Source: Trypanosoma brucei
Lineage: Eukaryota
Assembly: GCA_000002445.1 (NCBI GenBank)
Contig: CM000208.1
Span: 2,176,001 to 2,240,000, forward strand
Length of the DNA: 64,000 bases
Direction: 5' to 3'
Shown here: positions 3,526 through 63,500 of the stretch, one piece after another
How the letters are laid out: each line of letters begins with the position of its first letter
Position numbering within the stretch: the first letter of the stretch is position 1
The notes under the pieces: generated by a model
Seen by the model: only the letters and a program-made list of their open reading frames with translations
Database searches by the model: none
What the model was told of the DNA's origin: nothing
Translations under genes and position numbers: made by a program

Positions 3526-4788
3526 AAGGTGGAATGTGTTGATGCCGATCATTTCTTCAGTATTTGTTTCCCTGTATTTACCACCCTCTCAATTCACTTG
3601 TTGTTTCATGTTTTCTTTATGTCACCTCAACTGTTGTGCGCGTGGCTTCGTCGCCATTTTGGTTGTCAAGTGCAGATGGTAGAGGGAGGAAAAAGGCGCA
3701 CACTTCAGTTGAGCGCTCGTTTCACTATGTATTCTATCACCTTCTTCTGTTTTGTTTTTCATTTTTCGCTACTTCAATGTGTACATGTCGTCGATGATTA
3801 ATTCTTCCCGATGTGTGCTCCTATGTATGTCTGTGAGCAGGAGGGAAAGGGCGGGTGTGATGCTTGGAGGTAACAAAAAAAAAAAAGAATCGGTAGCTTG
3901 CCTTCTTCTTTCCCTCCTTCGAAGAACAACGAGCGCCTGCTGCAAAAACAATTTTTTCTCTGTTTTGCATTTAGAAGGTTGTTTCTTCAGTTATGTCGCA
4001 GAAATGTAGGTCCGACAATCTTCTTTTCTTTTTCTTTTATCTCGTTTTGTAGATCTCTACCACATGTGCGTATGCCAAAGGTGTAATTAAAGCAGGTAGG
4101 AGGAACGAGAGGAAGGAGAAAAAAAAAAGAACATAGATTTATATTGTTCCCCTACATCGGAGCAGACTACGTCTGTAATATGCGGAACCAACCTTCTCTG
4201 CACTTTACTGTAAATGTCTGCGAGATCACGTGATGTACACAAATTGGCTGCGTTCCTCTCACCACGTTGGATGCTGGAAAGGACACACAAACGAGGACAG
4301 AGAAACAATAACAACAACAAAAAAAAGAAAAGAAGCAACAACTTATGATGACAATATTATTTCTTACTTTCTGATCCGTGATTTGATTGACACAAGCACT
4401 GTCTGTGCGAACGTATCGAGAACCTGATTATATTGTCTTTAAAAATCCCCTCCTTTACATTATTTCCCTCCTTTACCTTATTTTCCTATCTCTTATACAT
4501 GACGAGACCGAACGGTAACTCTCTGGAAACTCATCCCCTCTTTTCTGTAGATGTGTTTCCTCATCGGTTCCCGGAGAAACCCTTTACGAGTTTCCTTCAG
4601 CGCAACTCAAACTGTCTGTTGGATTGTTGTTTAGTTTTAGGACCAACCTTGTGGGTTTATGTGGAAGAATGAGATTGAGAAAAAAGGTATGACGATTGTT
4701 TTATCGATATGTTTTGTGTCTATTTCTCCCCTCTTTTACTGCACTTGCCTTCATTCGTGTTTTCTTCACGTTGGTTTTTTTCCCACCG

Positions 4789-57193: not shown

Positions 57194-58450
57194 ATGTCAG
57201 CGTCAAGTGATTTGGATGCCACCTCCGATGAGGATGAGAACCACTTTAGGAGAGGTAATGGGAGTCTCGTTTTGCAACTCTCCGTTTTGTGTGACGCCTC
57301 GTTTGATCAGCCGCAACGTCCCTTCGGTGAGTTTTTTTGTAGGCCGTCGATGCCAACAAGGGAAACGTGTACAACAACCCTCCTAGTGAACTTGCTCTGG
57401 TTTGCGCGCAATTACTATAACTTGGTACTACTTGCCTCAATGGGAGTGATTTTATTTGCCCCACCGTTTGCATTGGCGGTCTTGTCGGTAAGCATTACCT
57501 ATATATTGAGGTCGCGAAACGGAAAAAGCGGAGCACCTTGTACTAGTCCCCAAAATGATATGTTACAGAAGAAGAAAAAAGGGAACCATCCTACCGTCAT
57601 GCTTTTTGGATTGATCAGGTTTCTCGTTTTTATTGGGACATGCTACGTGTGTGGGTTTCTCTTTATTACGGTGTGCTTTGTTGGCGTGGTTGCATTGTGC
57701 CTCTTTCATGCAATGTTCACACCGTACACCGATAAGGCCTTCGAGCTATACAGCGACGTTCTATGCTGCCGTCGCCTACCATTGCGTTTGCCGTGTTCTC
57801 CCACGAGGCAGTTCACATGCGTAGATCCTTCATTTGATGCACTGAGTAGGCAAGGCAGCACGGTTATGTCTCCTCGTGGCGGTAGCTGCAGTAAAAGTAG
57901 TAGTCCTTGGATGGGTACCCGCACGCCTGAGGTGTTGCATCACTCCTTTTCATCATCTTCGCGACCTTCACAGGGGGAGGGAATACACAACGGGTGGCCG
58001 CTGTCAGAATCCCGCAGGACAGTTTTAAGTACTCAGCGAGGGGAACGGCTAACGGGACGGCGACAATCACACCTAAGCGAGTGGGGAAGTCGACAGCAGG
58101 TGCGGGGGCGTCACAGGTCACCAGCGGCACTCGATGTTAGTGATTTTCAGAGCGATGTGGAGCCGCATGACAGCTTGGTATGCGCTCATGCGGGTACCGT
58201 AAGGCTGACGCGAGTGAAAGAGAGTATTTCTATTTCACCAATGGAGCAACATCTGGAGCGCAATCTGTCCCGGATGTGTTCGGGCTTCAGTGGGGAAGCA
58301 GTGACGCAGGGGAGTGTGTTGGATTTATGTAACGATGTGTGTAGCGCACTTGAAACCGCGGCGTTAGAGGATGAGGAAGGGGTTTTCGAGCAAACCACTG
58401 CATCCCAACCGATCGCACCACCTACTGAAGCTGCACCGTGCCTGATGTAA
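57194..58450 (+). CDS. PRA1 (prenylated Rab acceptor/Yip3) family protein with ~230-aa Ser/Arg-rich C-terminal extension
   Basis: ATG start. PRA1 core: RPFGEFF...LLVNLLWFARNYYNLVLL, then two hydrophobic hairpins (VILFAPPFALAVLSVSITYIL and LFGLIRFLVFIGTCYVCGFLFITVCFVGVVALCLF). Confidence 0.7.
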   Translation: MSASSDLDATSDEDENHFRRGNGSLVLQLSVLCDASFDQPQRPFGEFFCRPSMPTRETCTTTLLVNLLWFARNYYNLVLLASMGVILFAPPFALAVLSVSITYILRSRNGKSGAPCTSPQNDMLQKKKKGNHPTVMLFGLIRFLVFIGTCYVCGFLFITVCFVGVVALCLFHAMFTPYTDKAFELYSDVLCCRRLPLRLPCSPTRQFTCVDPSFDALSRQGSTVMSPRGGSCSKSSSPWMGTRTPEVLHHSFSSSSRPSQGEGIHNGWPLSESRRTVLSTQRGERLTGRRQSHLSEWGSRQQVRGRHRSPAALDVSDFQSDVEPHDSLVCAHAGTVRLTRVKESISISPMEQHLERNLSRMCSGFSGEAVTQGSVLDLCNDVCSALETAALEDEEGVFEQTTASQPIAPPTEAAPCLM

Positions 58451-59820
58451 TACATCGTCCGGGGCATGAAATGGATTGCGTTTGGACATAGCGTTAGTGA
58501 ATGGCGGAGTGGAAAAGTGTGCAGTTGCATTGACTGGCAATATAACGAAATGGTTTGAATAGGGTGGGACGAAGCGAACCTTTAAGTGGTTCTCGTTGGC
58601 ACGACCATCATATGTCTACCTGATTTATCAGATTTACGCAGCGGTGTCTCCTATAATTTTGGTGCTGGTAACACACACACATATATATATATATACATTT
58701 TTTTTTGTGTGTGTGCGCATTAAAACGTGTATGGAAAAAATACATAGGTATGAGAAGAAGTAGAGTGTGGCGTCGAGTATATAACTAAGCACATCAAAGG
58801 GACAAATGTAGGCGAGGAGAGCGGAGGTGCTGGGAGGGGTTTGAGTGTCTGTTAGTTTCTGTCACTTCGTGTGCGGAAAGGGAAATGTTTTTTTTTTTTT
58901 ACTTCCTCACAGTGGTATAATGAAGGAATCGGTAAAAGGCAAACGCTCCGCACTTCCTTTGCTTTACCTCCGTTCTCTTAATTCTTGTGCAACTGTATTT
59001 GTTGGTTTAATGGTGGCGCTGGTGTCACCCCTTCCCCTCTGTGTCTATTTTACTATAGACGTTTTTATCTATTTTTCTCCCGAATTTTTACTTTATTCCG
59101 CTTGAATTATTATCATTTGTGCGACCCGAACTTCTTTTCCGTTTCTCAAACTATACTCCCTTCAGCGGAGCCGAGAGGAGGTGGAATAGGAGTTAACACC
59201 ATGTCCTTCCCCCTCCCCCCACGAAAAAAAAAACAAACAAACAAAAAAGGGATGGGAGCGTACGCGTGTGATGCGCAACATTGCATTATATGAGTTGTAT
59301 TACCCACTTGCTTGCATGTGTTTGTTCCTTCTTCGTGCTAACCGCGGACTTTTGGTGGTCCCGGCCTCCTCGCAGTCCCCCTAATGTGTGTGTTGTCGGC
59401 GGCATACCCGTTAATGCTTATAATTTTTGACCTTTCTGCTGTGATGCATCAGTTGTTTATTTCATTTGGTCTGGTTTCCGCCCCAACTATGAGTCCGACA
59501 GTCATTTCCCATCTTCGCGAACCAACAGAATGTTTGCTTTGCGCATCAAGTGTTGTGTTACTTCTTCGGGTGACTGTTGGTTTGCATTACTTGTCATTAC
59601 TTTCTTACCTAAATGGGAGTCCAAGATACCAGGGAGATTGCTCGCATTACATTAGAACAAATGCTGTGTTTACTTTGATCGCTGCCATTCCCCTAACGTT
59701 TGTGTTTCTTCCTACTTTTTTTCTTTTCTGAAAGCGACTTGTGACTTGCCTTTCTTCAAGAGCCAAATAAAATTAGAAGTCTACACGGTTGGGAGGGGGG
59801 AAAAGGAACGTATTCGGACC

Positions 59821-59822
<2 letters not shown>

Positions 59823-59864
<42 letters not shown>
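59823..59864. repeat. (CA)21 microsatellite
   Basis: Uninterrupted CA run ~200 bp upstream of the IleRS ORF. Confidence 0.9.
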
Positions 59865-59868
<4 letters not shown>

Positions 59869-59940
59869 AACAGGCGGACATAAATCCGAACGTGCGAGTA
59901 AATAATATATATCAACACATATATCTCTTTCACATTTGCA

Positions 59941-60108
59941 CTTCTTGTGTTCGGTATTTTTCTTTCCTTTCCTCTTTTTTCCTTCTTCTCCTATCATTAT
60001 TATTACCATTGTTGCTGACATTCTTGTACCTGTGGTTCTAACCCTCTCTGTGCTATCGTCTTGTCCAAATGAATCGATGCTACTCCCTCCTTTGTTCCGT
60101 GCTGAACA
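59941..60108 (+). promoter_or_regulatory. Long polypyrimidine, AG-free stretch whose first downstream AG lies inside the IleRS ORF (after ATG 60069): candidate proximal trans-splice acceptor excluding the first AUG
   Basis: No AG dinucleotide could be found between ~59898 and 60107. The first AG is in ...CTGAACAG|CGG at ~60107. Confidence 0.5.
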
Positions 60109-63100
60109 GCGGTAAACGTGCCCAAACGAGTTTCCCGTCGACACGGCGTACCGTAATTCACTCACGTGTGTTGCCAAGCGAATCCATAACGTCTTCCTTT
60201 TCTCCACCGGAAACCACAACAGCATCAAAAGATAAATCTAGAGGGGAGGCAGCGAGTAAAACCACGATGACTGGACCACTACAAAACTTTGGCGATGAAC
60301 TTAACTTCCCAAAAATGGAAGAAGAGGTGCTGAAGCACTGGGAGGATATCGATGCATTCAAAGAATGTCTTAAGCAATCAGAAGGAAAGAAACCGTACAC
60401 ATTTTACGACGGACCGCCATTCGCGACGGGGTTGCCACATTACGGGCACCTCTTGGCTGGCACCATTAAGGATATCGTGTGTCGCTATGCCCATCAAACT
60501 GGCCATCACGTCGACCGCCGGTTTGGCTGGGATTGCCACGGGCTCCCCATTGAGTTTGAAATTGACAAGGAATATGGAATTAAATCTTCGCATGATGTGA
60601 AGAAGATGGGCATCGAAAACTACAACAACGCATGCCGCGCCATCGTGATGCGTTTTTCGGAGGAGTGGCGTAAAACTGTGACACGCATGGGGAGGTGGAT
60701 CGACTTTGACAACGACTACAAAACGATGTATCTCTCGTACATGGAAAGTGTTTGGTGGGTGTTCAAAAGTCTCTGGGATAAGGGTCTCGTGTACAGGGGA
60801 TTTAAGGTGATGCCCTTCTCAACGGCTTGCACCACTCCCCTCAGTAACTTCGAGGCCAACTTGAACTACAAGGACGTCAGTGACCCTTCACTAATGGTTA
60901 CCTTCAGGACTAAAGATGACCCGAACACATTCCTTATAGCTTGGACAACAACACCGTGGACACTTCCAAGCAACCTGGCGCTTTGCGTTCATCCGGATAT
61001 CGACTACGTTAAGGTCCTTGACAGCAAGACAAAACGTCACTACATCTTTGGCGAACCGCGACTTGGGGAGGTTTATCCCAAGAAGAAAGGCGATGGCAAG
61101 AAGGGCACGGAGGCATCCCCGTATACTATTGTCAGTCGTATGAAGGGGAAGGAGCTTGTCGGGACAAAATACGAACCGCTGTTTCCCTACTTTGAGGAGA
61201 AATATGGAGCCACCGCGTACCGTGTGCTGTGTGACGCGTACGTAGCGACGGACTCTGGCACGTGTGTTGTGCACCAGGCCCCCGGGTTTGGTGAGGAAGA
61301 TAATCGCATATGCATCGACAGCGGTGTTATAACGAAGGAGGATATGCTTTGCCCTGTCGATGAAAATGGTTCTTTCACCCCAGATGTGGTGGATTTCCAG
61401 GGTCGTTACGTGAAGGAAGCCGACTCAGACATTATCAAGTACTTGGAGTCAAAGGGACTTGTCCATAGTAAGGGATCCATTGTTCACAGTTACCCATTCT
61501 GCTGGCGCAGCGAAGCACCGCTGATCTATAAGGCGGTTGACACGTGGTTCGTGAAAGTGGAGTCTTTGCGTGAGCAACTTCTTTCTGCGAATGAGGAAAC
61601 GGAGTGGGTACCCGACTTTGTTAAGGTTAGGCGTTTCTCCAACTGGCTTGCCGACGCCAAAGACTGGAACGTTTCCCGTAACCGCTACTGGGGTACTCCC
61701 CTTCCTATTTGGCACAGCGAAGACTGGGAGGAGGTTGTGTGCGTTGGTAGTGTGGCTGAACTGGAAGAACTTTCCGGCACGAAGGGGATCACCGATATTC
61801 ACCGCCATTTCGTTGATCAGTTAACGATCCCAAGTAAGCGCCCGGGTATGCCCCCACTGCGTCGCGTGGAAGTGGTCTTTGATTGCTGGTTCGAGTCGGG
61901 CTCCATGCCCTATGCGCAGATTCACTACCCGTTCGCGGCTAAGGATAGTTTCGTTGGGGAAAAGTTCCCTGCGGATTTTGTGGCAGAAGGTCTCGACCAA
62001 ACACGCGGCTGGTTCTACACGATGCTTGTTCTCGGCGTTGCCCTCTTTGGGCGGGCCCCTTTCAAAAATGTTGTTGTGAACGGACTTATTCTTGCCGAGG
62101 ACGGTAAAAAGATGAGCAAACGACTGAAGAACTACCCCGAGCCTGGAATCATCATAAATACGCACGGTGCAGACGCTCTGCGTATGTACATGATCAATTC
62201 CCCGGTGGTGCGGGCGGAACCATTGCGCTTCAGGGAACAGGGTGTAAAGGGCATTGTCAGAGACGTGATGCTACCTCTGTTTAATGCCGCAAAGTTTTTT
62301 ATTGCGAATGCCAACTACTGCGTGGAGTTGGGTGGAAACGTGGCGACCGATGTTGTGAGCTCCAATGAAATGGACCGCTGGATTTTGGCGTCGACGCAAA
62401 CGCTTCAACAATACGTAAAGCGTGAGATGGAAAAGTACCATCTATACAATGTCGTTCCCGGGGTCCTTCGGTTCGTTGTGGATCTTTCCAATTGGTACGT
62501 TCGTATGAACCGCCGTCGTATGAAAGACACTGTTGACTTGGAGGACCGCTCGAGGGCACTCTCGACAATGTTGAACGTTCTTTTTGCTGTTTCCCGTATT
62601 ATTGCCCCTATTGCTCCGTTTGTTGCAGAAATGTTGTACCTACGCATCAAACCACTGCTTCCACAGGAGCAGCAGCTTAAATCGGTGCACTTTCACATGT
62701 TCCCGGAGGACGACATATCGAAGCATGACGAAGTGTTAGAGCGTGCTATGACTCGTATGGTCACCATTGTCGAGCTTGCTCGTGTTCTTCGAGATCGCAT
62801 GGTTATTCCTATGAAGCGACCGGTGCGTCAAGTTGTCGTTGTTCATCCTGACGAGGCGTACCTTGATGACGTTCGGAAAGTGGTTACGTACATCAAGGAG
62901 GAGGTGAGTGCCTTTGAGGTTGTTCTTTCCTCCAGTGATGAATACGTCACAACCCAACTGGATGCGAGCATGGAAAACTTGGGTAAACTCTACCGCAACG
63001 AGGCACCACAAATCCGCAAGGCGATTCAGGCATTGGGACCAGCAGCGGTTACTGAGTTTCTCAAAACTGGCGAAGTGGAGGTGCTCGGCAAGAAGATATC

Positions 63101-63500
63101 GCGTGACGATGTGAAGGTGATCCGTAAAGTAAAGGATGGCATAACTGACTTTGAGAGCAACACTGACAATGATGTGGTCGTTCTCTTGGACAAGCGAGAT
63201 GACCAAACGTTGGTGGACTCATGGCGCGCGCGGGAGTTCGTTAACCGAGTGCAGCAGCTCCGCAAGAAGGCCAAACTCATCGTCAAAGACATTATTGAGG
63301 TCTACTTCGAGACGGAGGATCCGGAACTGACTACCTCGATCCTCAACTGCTCTGAGCAGGTTAACAAAACTATCCGGGGGAAATGGGAAACAATGGACAA
63401 GCTCCCTAAAGGGGCTAAGCTAATTGCGGAGGAAGACAACTCGATATCGGGAGTTGGAATAAGAATTGTTTTCACACAACCGTCGGCTGGTGAATCGTAA
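60069..63500 (+). CDS. IleRS: Isoleucyl-tRNA synthetase with N-terminal mitochondrial-type extension; internal alternative initiator Met at 60267
   Basis: Class I signatures: HYGH (PFATGLPHYGHLLAGT), KMSKRL and the editing domain. The length and overall order are typical of eukaryotic IleRS. The first 66 codons (MNRCYSLLCSVLNSGKRAQTSFPSTRRTVIHSRVL...) look like a presequence. Confidence 0.95.
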   Translation: MNRCYSLLCSVLNSGKRAQTSFPSTRRTVIHSRVLPSESITSSFSPPETTTASKDKSRGEAASKTTMTGPLQNFGDELNFPKMEEEVLKHWEDIDAFKECLKQSEGKKPYTFYDGPPFATGLPHYGHLLAGTIKDIVCRYAHQTGHHVDRRFGWDCHGLPIEFEIDKEYGIKSSHDVKKMGIENYNNACRAIVMRFSEEWRKTVTRMGRWIDFDNDYKTMYLSYMESVWWVFKSLWDKGLVYRGFKVMPFSTACTTPLSNFEANLNYKDVSDPSLMVTFRTKDDPNTFLIAWTTTPWTLPSNLALCVHPDIDYVKVLDSKTKRHYIFGEPRLGEVYPKKKGDGKKGTEASPYTIVSRMKGKELVGTKYEPLFPYFEEKYGATAYRVLCDAYVATDSGTCVVHQAPGFGEEDNRICIDSGVITKEDMLCPVDENGSFTPDVVDFQGRYVKEADSDIIKYLESKGLVHSKGSIVHSYPFCWRSEAPLIYKAVDTWFVKVESLREQLLSANEETEWVPDFVKVRRFSNWLADAKDWNVSRNRYWGTPLPIWHSEDWEEVVCVGSVAELEELSGTKGITDIHRHFVDQLTIPSKRPGMPPLRRVEVVFDCWFESGSMPYAQIHYPFAAKDSFVGEKFPADFVAEGLDQTRGWFYTMLVLGVALFGRAPFKNVVVNGLILAEDGKKMSKRLKNYPEPGIIINTHGADALRMYMINSPVVRAEPLRFREQGVKGIVRDVMLPLFNAAKFFIANANYCVELGGNVATDVVSSNEMDRWILASTQTLQQYVKREMEKYHLYNVVPGVLRFVVDLSNWYVRMNRRRMKDTVDLEDRSRALSTMLNVLFAVSRIIAPIAPFVAEMLYLRIKPLLPQEQQLKSVHFHMFPEDDISKHDEVLERAMTRMVTIVELARVLRDRMVIPMKRPVRQVVVVHPDEAYLDDVRKVVTYIKEEVSAFEVVLSSSDEYVTTQLDASMENLGKLYRNEAPQIRKAIQALGPAAVTEFLKTGEVEVLGKKISRDDVKVIRKVKDGITDFESNTDNDVVVLLDKRDDQTLVDSWRAREFVNRVQQLRKKAKLIVKDIIEVYFETEDPELTTSILNCSEQVNKTIRGKWETMDKLPKGAKLIAEEDNSISGVGIRIVFTQPSAGES

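What the first reader, a model, noticed from the sequence alone, without database searches (positions are those of the whole stretch)
59690..60320. IleRS: sequence signals consistent with dual targeting through alternative trans-splicing
The IleRS ORF opens with a 66-codon extension (MNRCYSLLCSVLNSGKRAQTSFPSTRRTVIHSRVL...) that looks like a mitochondrial presequence. An in-frame Met follows at 60267 (MTGPLQNFGDELNFPKMEEEVLKHWEDID), where conserved IleRS sequence begins. The strong polypyrimidine tract 59941-60060 is followed by an AG-free stretch, and the first AG (~60107) lies after the first ATG. A trans-splice there would remove AUG1, and the next AUG in any frame is Met67 at 60267. A further internal polyY tract (60190-60210) with AGs at 60222-60235 provides a second candidate site. 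A more distal polyY/AG region (59691-59760) could give a longer 5'UTR that includes the (CA)21 repeat and AUG1. This matches the reported mechanism for trypanosome IleRS, where a long transcript encodes the mitochondrial isoform and a short one the cytosolic isoform.
Basis: partly seen in the sequence, partly recalled or inferred. Interest (0 to 1): 0.55.

Follow-up and report, generated by a model that had tools for sequence, protein, structure and literature searches.

The report
Known T. brucei IleRS dual-targeting splice sites
This is the 5' end of the Trypanosoma brucei isoleucyl-tRNA synthetase gene, the same gene in which alternative spliced-leader addition was shown experimentally in 2012 to produce a mitochondrial and a cytosolic enzyme, so the finding is correct but already known.

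Summary
The ORF 60069-63500 is residue-for-residue T. brucei TREU927 IleRS (Tb927.10.9190, old ID Tb10.6k15.1220). From the published ORF coordinates, the window is Tb927_10_v4:2,176,001-2,240,000.

Rettig et al. 2012 (PMC3273800) demonstrated the proposed mechanism on this gene. A long trans-spliced mRNA keeps AUG1 and encodes the mitochondrial isoform. A short mRNA, 3-4 times more abundant, starts at Met67 and encodes the cytosolic isoform.

Their junction primer (SL 3' end + CATCAAAAGA) maps uniquely to 60223-60232, directly after AG 60221-22 and 44 nt before AUG2, as published.

That RNAi left the cytosolic isoform unchanged. So AG 60108 can be at most a minor site.

New here, but modest:
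- The internal polyY, AG and ATG-free leader are conserved in six other kinetoplastids, including Bodo saltans.
- The 211-nt AG-free zone is the longest in the window.

Verdict: already known, low interest.

The parts
59705..59757 (+). Distal polypyrimidine tracts (59705-13, 59715-29, 59749-57) that precede the long-variant acceptor
   Evidence: 25 of the 30 bases before AG 59733 are pyrimidines.
59759..59762 (+). AG pair (59759-60 and 59761-62): inferred spliced-leader acceptor of the long (mitochondrial) mRNA
   Evidence: Inferred. The published long-variant-specific RNAi fragment '-307..+141' (448 bp) equals 59762-60209. No spliced-leader read could be examined here.
59763..60068 (+). 5'UTR of the long variant, about 306 nt, free of ATG in all frames. 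It contains (CA)21 and the 36-nt polyY.
   Evidence: ATG-free gap 59661 to 60069. The published long-variant qPCR primers map at 59887-59906 and 60003-60022.
59823..59864 (+). (CA)21 microsatellite in the long 5'UTR. It has 11 units in another T. brucei isolate (L002).
59957..59992 (+). 36-nt uninterrupted polypyrimidine run with no AG for 116 nt downstream
59899..60107 (+). AG-free zone, the longest in the window, spanning the 36-nt polyY and AUG1
60034..60036 (+). GG followed by 60036, the 5'-most spliced-leader addition site reported by Kolev et al. 2010 (Tb927_10_v4:2236036), 33 nt upstream of AUG1. The acceptor is not AG and its significance is uncertain.
   Evidence: Kolev Table S1. Sequence context.
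60069..60071 (+). AUG1, the start of the mitochondrial precursor (130.6 kDa)
60069..60266 (+). 66-codon N-terminal extension. Residues 1-35 are basic (+6), have no D/E and are rich in Ser/Thr, with an amphipathic N-terminus. An S/T/P-rich linker follows.
   Evidence: Published MitoProt score 0.80-0.81 and TargetP 0.90, with predicted cleavage after residue 43. The extension is conserved across kinetoplastids.
60108..60109 (+). First AG after the 36-nt polyY, preceded by an 11-nt polyY at 60083-60093.
   Evidence: The RNAi argument rests.
60192..60205 (+). Internal 14-nt polypyrimidine tract lying within codons S42 to P46. It is the longest pyrimidine run in the ORF and ends 16 nt before the acceptor AG.
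   Evidence: Homologous tracts occur in 6 other species.
60221..60222 (+). AG acceptor of the short, major (cytosolic) mRNA. The spliced leader is joined to 60223.
   Evidence: In the published junction primer CTGTACTATATTG+CATCAAAAGA, the gene-specific part maps uniquely to 60223-60232. [quoted passage not shown]
60223..60266 (+). 44-nt 5'UTR of the short variant, with no ATG
60267..60269 (+). AUG2 (Met67), the start of the cytosolic isoform (computed 123.47 kDa, published 123.5 kDa)
60069..63500 (+). IleRS ORF (Tb927.10.9190), a eukaryotic-type class I aminoacyl-tRNA synthetase
   Evidence: Exact match to XP_823143.1 / Q38A55_TRYB2. Pfam PF00133, PF08264 and PF19302 on the cluster.

Best explanation
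This is the 5' region of the single T. brucei IleRS gene, Tb927.10.9190. The polycistronic precursor receives the spliced leader at alternative acceptors.

(1) The upstream acceptor is most likely the AG pair 59759/59761, behind the 59705-59757 polypyrimidine tracts. It gives a long mRNA with an ATG-free 5'UTR of about 306 nt. Scanning ribosomes start at AUG1 (60069) and make a precursor with a basic, amphipathic presequence. This precursor is imported into the mitochondrion and probably cleaved.

(2) The internal acceptor is AG 60221-22, 16 nt behind a 14-nt polypyrimidine tract that is itself part of the coding sequence of the presequence linker. Splicing there removes AUG1 and leaves a 44-nt leader. 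Translation then starts at Met67 (60267) and the enzyme stays in the cytosol.

The short mRNA is 3-4 times more abundant, partly because it is more stable.

What was shown experimentally by others: the two mRNAs, the two protein isoforms and their locations, and the loss of the mitochondrial isoform together with loss of tRNA-Ile charging in mitochondria after RNAi against the long 5'UTR.

What was shown here: gene identity, the mapping of the published reagents onto the window, the sequence signals and their statistics, and conservation in other kinetoplastids.

What is inferred: the exact long-variant acceptor nucleotide and the presequence cleavage site.
For: - Identity: the protein is an exact match to T. 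brucei TREU927 IleRS, and the upstream neighbour is an exact match to the TREU927 PRA1-family protein. ORF coordinates 2236069-2239500 in Kolev Table S1 equal the window coordinates plus 2,176,000.
- Masses: computed values of 125.85 kDa (after residue 43) and 123.47 kDa (from Met67) match the published 125.9 and 123.5 kDa.
- Short-variant site: the gene part of the published junction primer maps uniquely at 60223-60232, right after AG 60221-22 and 44 nt before AUG2.
- Long-variant region: the long-variant primers map at 59887-60022, and the RNAi fragment -307..+141 equals 59762-60209.
- Published experiments: fractionation, isoform-specific RNAi, tRNA-Ile charging and mRNA decay.
- Presequence features: +6 net charge, no acidic residue in residues 1-35, and a hydrophobic moment above the 95th percentile of the rest of the protein.
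- Upstream AUGs: the long 5'UTR has none (P about 0.004), and there is no AUG between the internal acceptor and AUG2.
- Conservation, protein: the extension, with an R-T-V-I-[HY] motif, and an in-frame Met just upstream of GPLxNF are present from Bodo saltans to Trypanosoma and Leishmania.
- Conservation, DNA: all 7 loci examined have an internal polyY, then an AG, then an ATG-free leader to AUG2.
- Codon choice: in 6 of 7 species the extension holds the longest pyrimidine run of the whole ORF. Synonymous-recoding P values range from 0.0025 to 0.5.
Against: - No spliced-leader-containing read could be examined directly here. The Logan contigs that encode the 1077-aa product are genomic, not transcripts.
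- Kolev et al. give 2236036 (window 60036, a GG acceptor) as the 5'-most spliced-leader site, rather than a site near -307. The long-variant acceptor may therefore differ between strains or data sets, or there may be a third AUG1-containing mRNA.
- Kolev et al. also list the gene under 'misannotated start codon'.
- RNAi against the long variant gave no growth defect.
- The synonymous-recoding test is weak in individual species, and the species are not independent.
Confidence: 0.93

Rival explanations
1. The 36-nt polypyrimidine run at 59957-59992 drives spliced-leader addition at the first downstream AG (60108), and this is the main route to the AUG1-less cytosolic mRNA.
For: - AG 60108 is the first AG after the strongest local polyY.
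- It has its own 11-nt polyY (60083-60093) 15 nt upstream, and 22 of the preceding 30 bases are pyrimidines.
- After it, the next AUG in any frame is Met67.
- The stated minimal requirement for a trans-splice site is a polyY of at least 10 nt with an AG 5-20 nt downstream.
Against: - The published major junction is at 60223.
- RNAi against 59762-60209 would hit a transcript starting at 60110 over 100 nt, yet it left the cytosolic isoform unchanged.
- AG 60108 lies 116 nt from the end of the 36-nt run. This is far outside the usual -14 to -43 window.
Confidence: 0.05
2. One mRNA, two starts. A single AUG1-containing transcript yields both isoforms by leaky scanning or inefficient import, and splicing plays no role.
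For: - Dual targeting from one mRNA is common in other eukaryotes (established knowledge).
- There is no ATG between 60078 and 60267, so leaky scanning past AUG1 could reach Met67.
Against: - Two mRNAs were seen on northern blots and by SL trapping.
- RNAi specific for the long 5'UTR removed only the mitochondrial isoform.
- A junction-specific primer amplifies the short variant.
Confidence: 0.03
3. AUG1 is an annotation artefact. The true gene starts at Met67, and the upstream 66 codons are untranslated 5'UTR.
For: - Kolev et al. list the gene among ORFs with a misannotated start codon.
- Several orthologues (L. donovani, L. guyanensis, T. grayi, Novymonas, Phytomonas) are annotated from the downstream Met.
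- A gene caller chose Met67 on genomic Logan contigs.
Against: - The extension is conserved at the protein level from Bodo to Trypanosoma and Leishmania, including the M[LF]R[CR] start and the R-T-V-I-[HY] motif.
- A larger, mitochondrially located isoform was detected, and it depends on the long mRNA.
- The long 5'UTR has no upstream AUG.
Confidence: 0.02

Closest known systems
T. brucei IleRS (Tb927.10.9190) dual targeting by alternative trans-splicing (Rettig, Wang, Schneider, Ochsenreiter, NAR 2012; PMC3273800)
   Same: It is the same locus. The protein is identical, the published primers and RNAi fragment map onto the window, the 44-nt distance from the internal acceptor to AUG2 is the same, and the isoform masses match.
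   Different: Nothing differs in kind. This analysis adds window coordinates for each element, the observation that the acceptor's polyY lies inside codons 42-46, the AG-free and ATG-free statistics, and DNA-level conservation in six further kinetoplastids.
Other T. brucei aminoacyl-tRNA synthetases proposed to use the same route (AsnRS, ProRS, GlnRS, GluRS; Nilsson et al. 2010 Table S7, PMC2916883), and L. tarentolae AsnRS/GlnRS/HisRS (PMC8319005)
   Same: A single gene, an N-terminal mitochondrial targeting sequence, a major spliced-leader site internal to the annotated ORF and a minor site upstream of AUG1.
   Different: For those genes the evidence is mostly spliced-leader mapping plus prediction. 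IleRS is the experimentally validated case. In L. tarentolae only two spliced-leader reads were obtained for IleRS, both of the short form.
T. cruzi LYT1 alternative trans-splicing (Benabdellah et al. 2007, cited in PMC2916883)
   Same: Alternative spliced-leader acceptors include or exclude an N-terminal signal and so change the compartment of the protein.
   Different: A different gene and a different signal. It is not an aminoacyl-tRNA synthetase. This comparison rests on the citing paper's description only.

Membership tests
Dual targeting of kinetoplastid IleRS by alternative trans-splicing (Rettig et al. 2012) | The gene is the eukaryotic-type IleRS of T. brucei (Tb927.10.9190) | tested here: met
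   Exact 1143-aa match to XP_823143.1 / Q38A55_TRYB2. ORF coordinates match Kolev Table S1 with an offset of 2,176,000.
Dual targeting of kinetoplastid IleRS by alternative trans-splicing (Rettig et al. 2012) | An N-terminal extension with features of a mitochondrial presequence lies upstream of a second in-frame AUG, where conserved IleRS sequence begins | tested here: met
   Residues 1-35 carry +6 net charge, have no D/E, and show a high hydrophobic moment. Non-kinetoplastid cytosolic IleRS proteins start at the position of Met67. Published MitoProt and TargetP scores are 0.8-0.9. No targeting predictor could be run here.
Dual targeting of kinetoplastid IleRS by alternative trans-splicing (Rettig et al. 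2012) | An internal spliced-leader acceptor between AUG1 and AUG2, 44 nt upstream of AUG2 | tested here: met
   The gene part of the junction primer maps at 60223-60232 directly after AG 60221-22, and 60267 - 60223 = 44. A 14-nt polyY ends 16 nt upstream of that AG.
Dual targeting of kinetoplastid IleRS by alternative trans-splicing (Rettig et al. 2012) | A spliced-leader acceptor upstream of AUG1 that gives a long mRNA retaining AUG1 | tested here: inconclusive
   PolyY tracts and the AG pair 59759/59761 coincide with the 5' end (-307) of the published long-variant RNAi fragment, and the long-variant amplicon maps at 59887-60022. The exact junction is not given in the text held, and Kolev et al. 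report 60036 as the 5'-most site.
Dual targeting of kinetoplastid IleRS by alternative trans-splicing (Rettig et al. 2012) | No AUG between each acceptor and its start codon | tested here: met
   There is no ATG in 59662-60068 and none in 60078-60266.
Dual targeting of kinetoplastid IleRS by alternative trans-splicing (Rettig et al. 2012) | The long product is mitochondrial, the short product is cytosolic, and both are active | not testable with these tools
   Published fractionation, RNAi and tRNA-Ile charging data.
Class I aminoacyl-tRNA synthetase, IleRS | Catalytic domain (PF00133) with HIGH-type and KMSKS-type motifs, anticodon-binding domain (PF08264), and C-terminal PF19302 | tested here: met
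   Precomputed Pfam hits on the cluster and on the called genes. PHYGHLLAG and KKMSKR are visible in the translation.

The most novel reading that the evidence does not exclude
The two-acceptor architecture may be ancestral to Kinetoplastea, with the internal splice signal maintained by selection on codon choice. In T. brucei, T. cruzi, T. vivax, T. theileri, Leptomonas pyrrhocoris, Leishmania sp. Namibia and the free-living Bodo saltans, the Ser/Phe/Leu/Pro-rich linker of the presequence is encoded so that it forms a 10-22-nt polypyrimidine tract. An AG follows, then an ATG-free leader to the second Met.

In addition, T. brucei specifically has a 211-nt AG desert around a 36-nt polyY and AUG1. 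This may serve to prevent efficient spliced-leader addition just upstream of AUG1 and so keep the mitochondrial isoform the minor one.
Probability: 0.45. Interest if true: 0.3.

Novelty: already known. Interest (0 to 1): 0.1.

Why it matters
Trypanosomes encode no mitochondrial tRNAs and mostly have one gene per aminoacyl-tRNA synthetase, so each enzyme must reach two compartments. IleRS is the textbook demonstration that the choice of spliced-leader acceptor decides this. Re-finding it from raw sequence shows the signals can be read, but it adds nothing new to the mechanism.

The small additions here could help in designing splice-site mutants or in annotating the orthologues that currently lack the presequence. 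These additions are exact coordinates, the coding-embedded polypyrimidine tract, conservation down to Bodo, and the AG-free and uAUG-free zones.

Tried and rejected
1. Direct evidence for spliced-leader junctions. The two 1077-aa Logan proteins in the same 90% cluster (P0004, P0005) looked like products of short transcripts. Their contigs (L001, L002) are genomic DNA that continues upstream through AUG1 and the CA repeat. The Met67 start is only the gene caller's choice. An exact look-up of the window's own Met67 product found nothing.

2. Genome-wide spliced-leader site tables. No supplements are held for Rettig 2012 or Siegel 2010. Kolev Table S4, which lists all spliced-leader sites, is truncated in the stored copy and does not reach this gene. 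Only the Table S1 line (5'-most site 2236036) and the poly(A) table were usable.

3. I considered that the Kolev 60036 site could be an SL-primer mispriming artefact, because 60021-60035 (TTCTTGTACCTGTGG) loosely resembles the spliced-leader 3' end. The similarity is weak and out of register, so this stays an untested caveat.

4. A literature search for the gene ID returned only the Rettig paper. The hnRNP F/H paper only cites it.

5. An Rfam scan of the whole window found nothing in the finding's region.
Full report
**What is there**

The window carries a 1143-codon ORF on the + strand at 60069-63500. Its product is identical, residue for residue, to the isoleucyl-tRNA synthetase of Trypanosoma brucei brucei TREU927 (XP_823143.1, Q38A55_TRYB2). 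The upstream ORF at 57194-58450 is identical to the neighbouring TREU927 PRA1-family protein.

Kolev et al. 2010 list this gene under its old ID Tb10.6k15.1220 at Tb927_10_v4:2236069-2239500. These are the window coordinates plus 2,176,000, so the window is chr10 2,176,001-2,240,000. All ORFs of 250 aa or more that do not overlap a longer ORF lie on the + strand, and two T. brucei chr10 snoRNAs (TB10Cs5H2 and TB10Cs5H3) lie at 4159-4579. Both fit a T. brucei polycistronic unit.

**Checking the observation**

- AUG1 is at 60069, and the second in-frame Met is codon 67 at 60267.
- (CA)21 lies at 59823-59864.
- The region 59941-60060 is 78% pyrimidine, with a 36-nt uninterrupted run at 59957-59992.
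- There is no AG from 59899 to 60107, and the first AG is at 60108-09. The 211-nt distance between neighbouring AGs is the longest on the + strand of the window. The median distance is 10 nt, and a geometric model expects 0.0095 such gaps.
- The only other ATG near AUG1 is the out-of-frame one at 60077. After it, the next ATG in any frame is 60267.
- The internal polyY is 60192-60205, the longest pyrimidine run in the 3.4-kb ORF, with AGs at 60221 and 60230 and more beyond.
- The distal polyY tracts lie at 59705-59757, with AGs at 59733, 59759 and 59761.
- A further feature: 59662-60068 has no ATG at all (P about 0.004 for 306 nt). An mRNA spliced in the distal region therefore has no upstream AUG before AUG1.

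**What it is and how it works**

- SL trapping and northern blots show a long and a short trans-spliced mRNA.
- HA-tagged IleRS runs as two bands. The larger co-fractionates with mitochondrial HSP70 and the smaller with cytosolic eEF1a.
- RNAi against the common ORF removes both isoforms and blocks tRNA-Ile charging in both compartments.
- The short mRNA is 3-4 times more abundant and more stable.

The published reagents can be placed on the window.
- The short-variant qPCR primer CTGTACTATATTGCATCAAAAGA consists of the last 13 nt of the spliced leader fused to CATCAAAAGA. That decamer occurs once in the window, at 60223-60232, directly after AG 60221-22. 60267 minus 60223 is 44, matching the paper's statement that the second AUG lies 44 nt downstream of the second acceptor.
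- The long-variant amplicon maps to 59887-60022.
- The 448-bp long-variant RNAi fragment ('307-141', that is -307 to +141) equals 59762-60209. It begins at the AG pair 59759/59761 and ends 14 nt before the short-variant junction.
- Computed masses are 125.85 kDa for the protein cleaved after residue 43 and 123.47 kDa from Met67. These reproduce the published 125.9 and 123.5 kDa.

The experimentally used major site is its second candidate, AG 60221-22. That site has typical geometry: a 14-nt polyY ending 16 nt upstream, against a genome-wide polyY position of -14 to -43.

AG 60108 has its own 11-nt polyY and could be a minor site that gives the same protein. However, RNAi against 59762-60209 overlaps such a transcript by 100 nt and did not reduce the cytosolic isoform. 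It therefore cannot be a major source.

The long-variant acceptor is inferred, not read from a junction sequence. Kolev et al. give 2236036 (window 60036) as the 5'-most spliced-leader site. This site is preceded by GG and lies 33 nt upstream of AUG1. It remains unexplained. It could be a third AUG1-containing mRNA, a strain difference or an artefact.

**Presequence**

Residues 1-35 carry six basic and no acidic residues, with nine Ser/Thr. The hydrophobic moment of residues 1-18 (0.53) exceeds the 95th percentile of the rest of the protein, which is 0.51. Published MitoProt and TargetP scores are 0.80-0.81 and 0.90, with predicted cleavage after residue 43.

**Comparative evidence added here**

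Orthologues from T. vivax, T. theileri, T. melophagium, T. cruzi, T. rangeli, T. conorhini, Angomonas, Strigomonas, Leptomonas, Porcisia, Leishmania sp. Namibia and Bodo saltans all carry the extension. It has a conserved start (M[LF]R[CR]) and an R-T-V-I-[HY] motif, then a variable S/T/P-rich linker, then an in-frame Met 3-25 residues before the conserved GPLxNF. Non-kinetoplastid cytosolic IleRS proteins begin at that point.

At the DNA level, T. cruzi, T. vivax, T. theileri, L. pyrrhocoris, Leishmania sp. Namibia and B. saltans (L003-L008) each have a 10-22-nt polypyrimidine tract inside the linker coding sequence. The first AG follows 12-65 nt later, and there is no ATG in any frame from there to the second Met.

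In 6 of the 7 species the extension contains the longest pyrimidine run of the entire ORF. Recoding the extension with each gene's own synonymous codon usage reaches the observed run length with P = 0.07, 0.125, 0.03, 0.5, 0.014, 0.0025 and 0.034. These values are suggestive together, but the species are related.

Others have noted that the architecture is conserved (T. cruzi 'data not shown'), and L. tarentolae gave two short-form spliced-leader reads. This comparative result is therefore an extension of earlier work, not a discovery.

**Verdict**

The finding is a re-identification of a published, experimentally validated mechanism at its original locus. Novelty: already known. Interest: low.

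Noticed in passing
window 60034-60036: Kolev et al. 2010 Table S1 gives the 5'-most spliced-leader addition site of this gene as Tb927_10_v4:2236036 (window 60036). It lies 33 nt upstream of AUG1 and is preceded by GG rather than AG. This differs from the roughly -307 start implied by Rettig's long-variant reagents, and the same table files the gene under 'misannotated start codon'.
   Followed up: partly
window 59897-60108: This is the longest AG-free interval on the + strand of the whole 64-kb window (211 nt; the median is 10). It covers a 36-nt polyY and AUG1. It is not conserved in T. cruzi, which instead has an (AG)n repeat just upstream of AUG1, nor in T. vivax. It is therefore a T. brucei-lineage feature that may limit spliced-leader addition just upstream of AUG1.
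   Followed up: partly
window 59823-59864; L002 1105-1126; L001 1-27: The CA microsatellite in the long 5'UTR varies in length between T. brucei isolates: 21 units in the window and 11 in the Logan contig from ERR7929164. The contig from ERR7929161 breaks inside the repeat. Rettig et al. postulated an undefined destabilising element in this 5'UTR.
   Followed up: no
window 60144-60164 (residues 26-32, RRTVIHS); orthologues: The motif R-T-V-I-[HY] is conserved in the presequence from Bodo saltans to Trypanosoma and Leishmaniinae. It is much better conserved than the rest of the extension. It may mark a processing-peptidase site different from the MitoProt-predicted cleavage after residue 43.
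   Followed up: no
P0011 (T. grayi), P0023 (L. guyanensis), P0033 (L. donovani), P0036 (Novymonas), P0040/P0043 (Phytomonas): These orthologues are annotated from the downstream Met and so lack the presequence in the databases, whereas close relatives (Leishmania sp. Namibia, Porcisia, Leptomonas) are annotated with it. The short models probably omit the mitochondrial isoform. Their upstream DNA was not examined.
   Followed up: no
window 4159-4225 and 4510-4579 (+): Two H/ACA-type snoRNAs, TB10Cs5H2 (74.3 bits) and TB10Cs5H3 (74.7 bits), both well above the Rfam gathering scores. This fits a chromosome 10 origin.
   Followed up: no
window 64000 and beyond: Kolev Table S13 places the major poly(A) site of IleRS at 2240083 (3'UTR 583 nt), which is 83 nt beyond the end of the window. 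The 3'UTR is therefore truncated here.
   Followed up: no
L003-L005, downstream of IleRS: In T. cruzi, T. vivax and T. theileri the gene downstream of IleRS encodes a NERD-domain protein (PF08378). Synteny on that side could not be checked in the window because it ends 500 nt after the IleRS stop codon.
   Followed up: no
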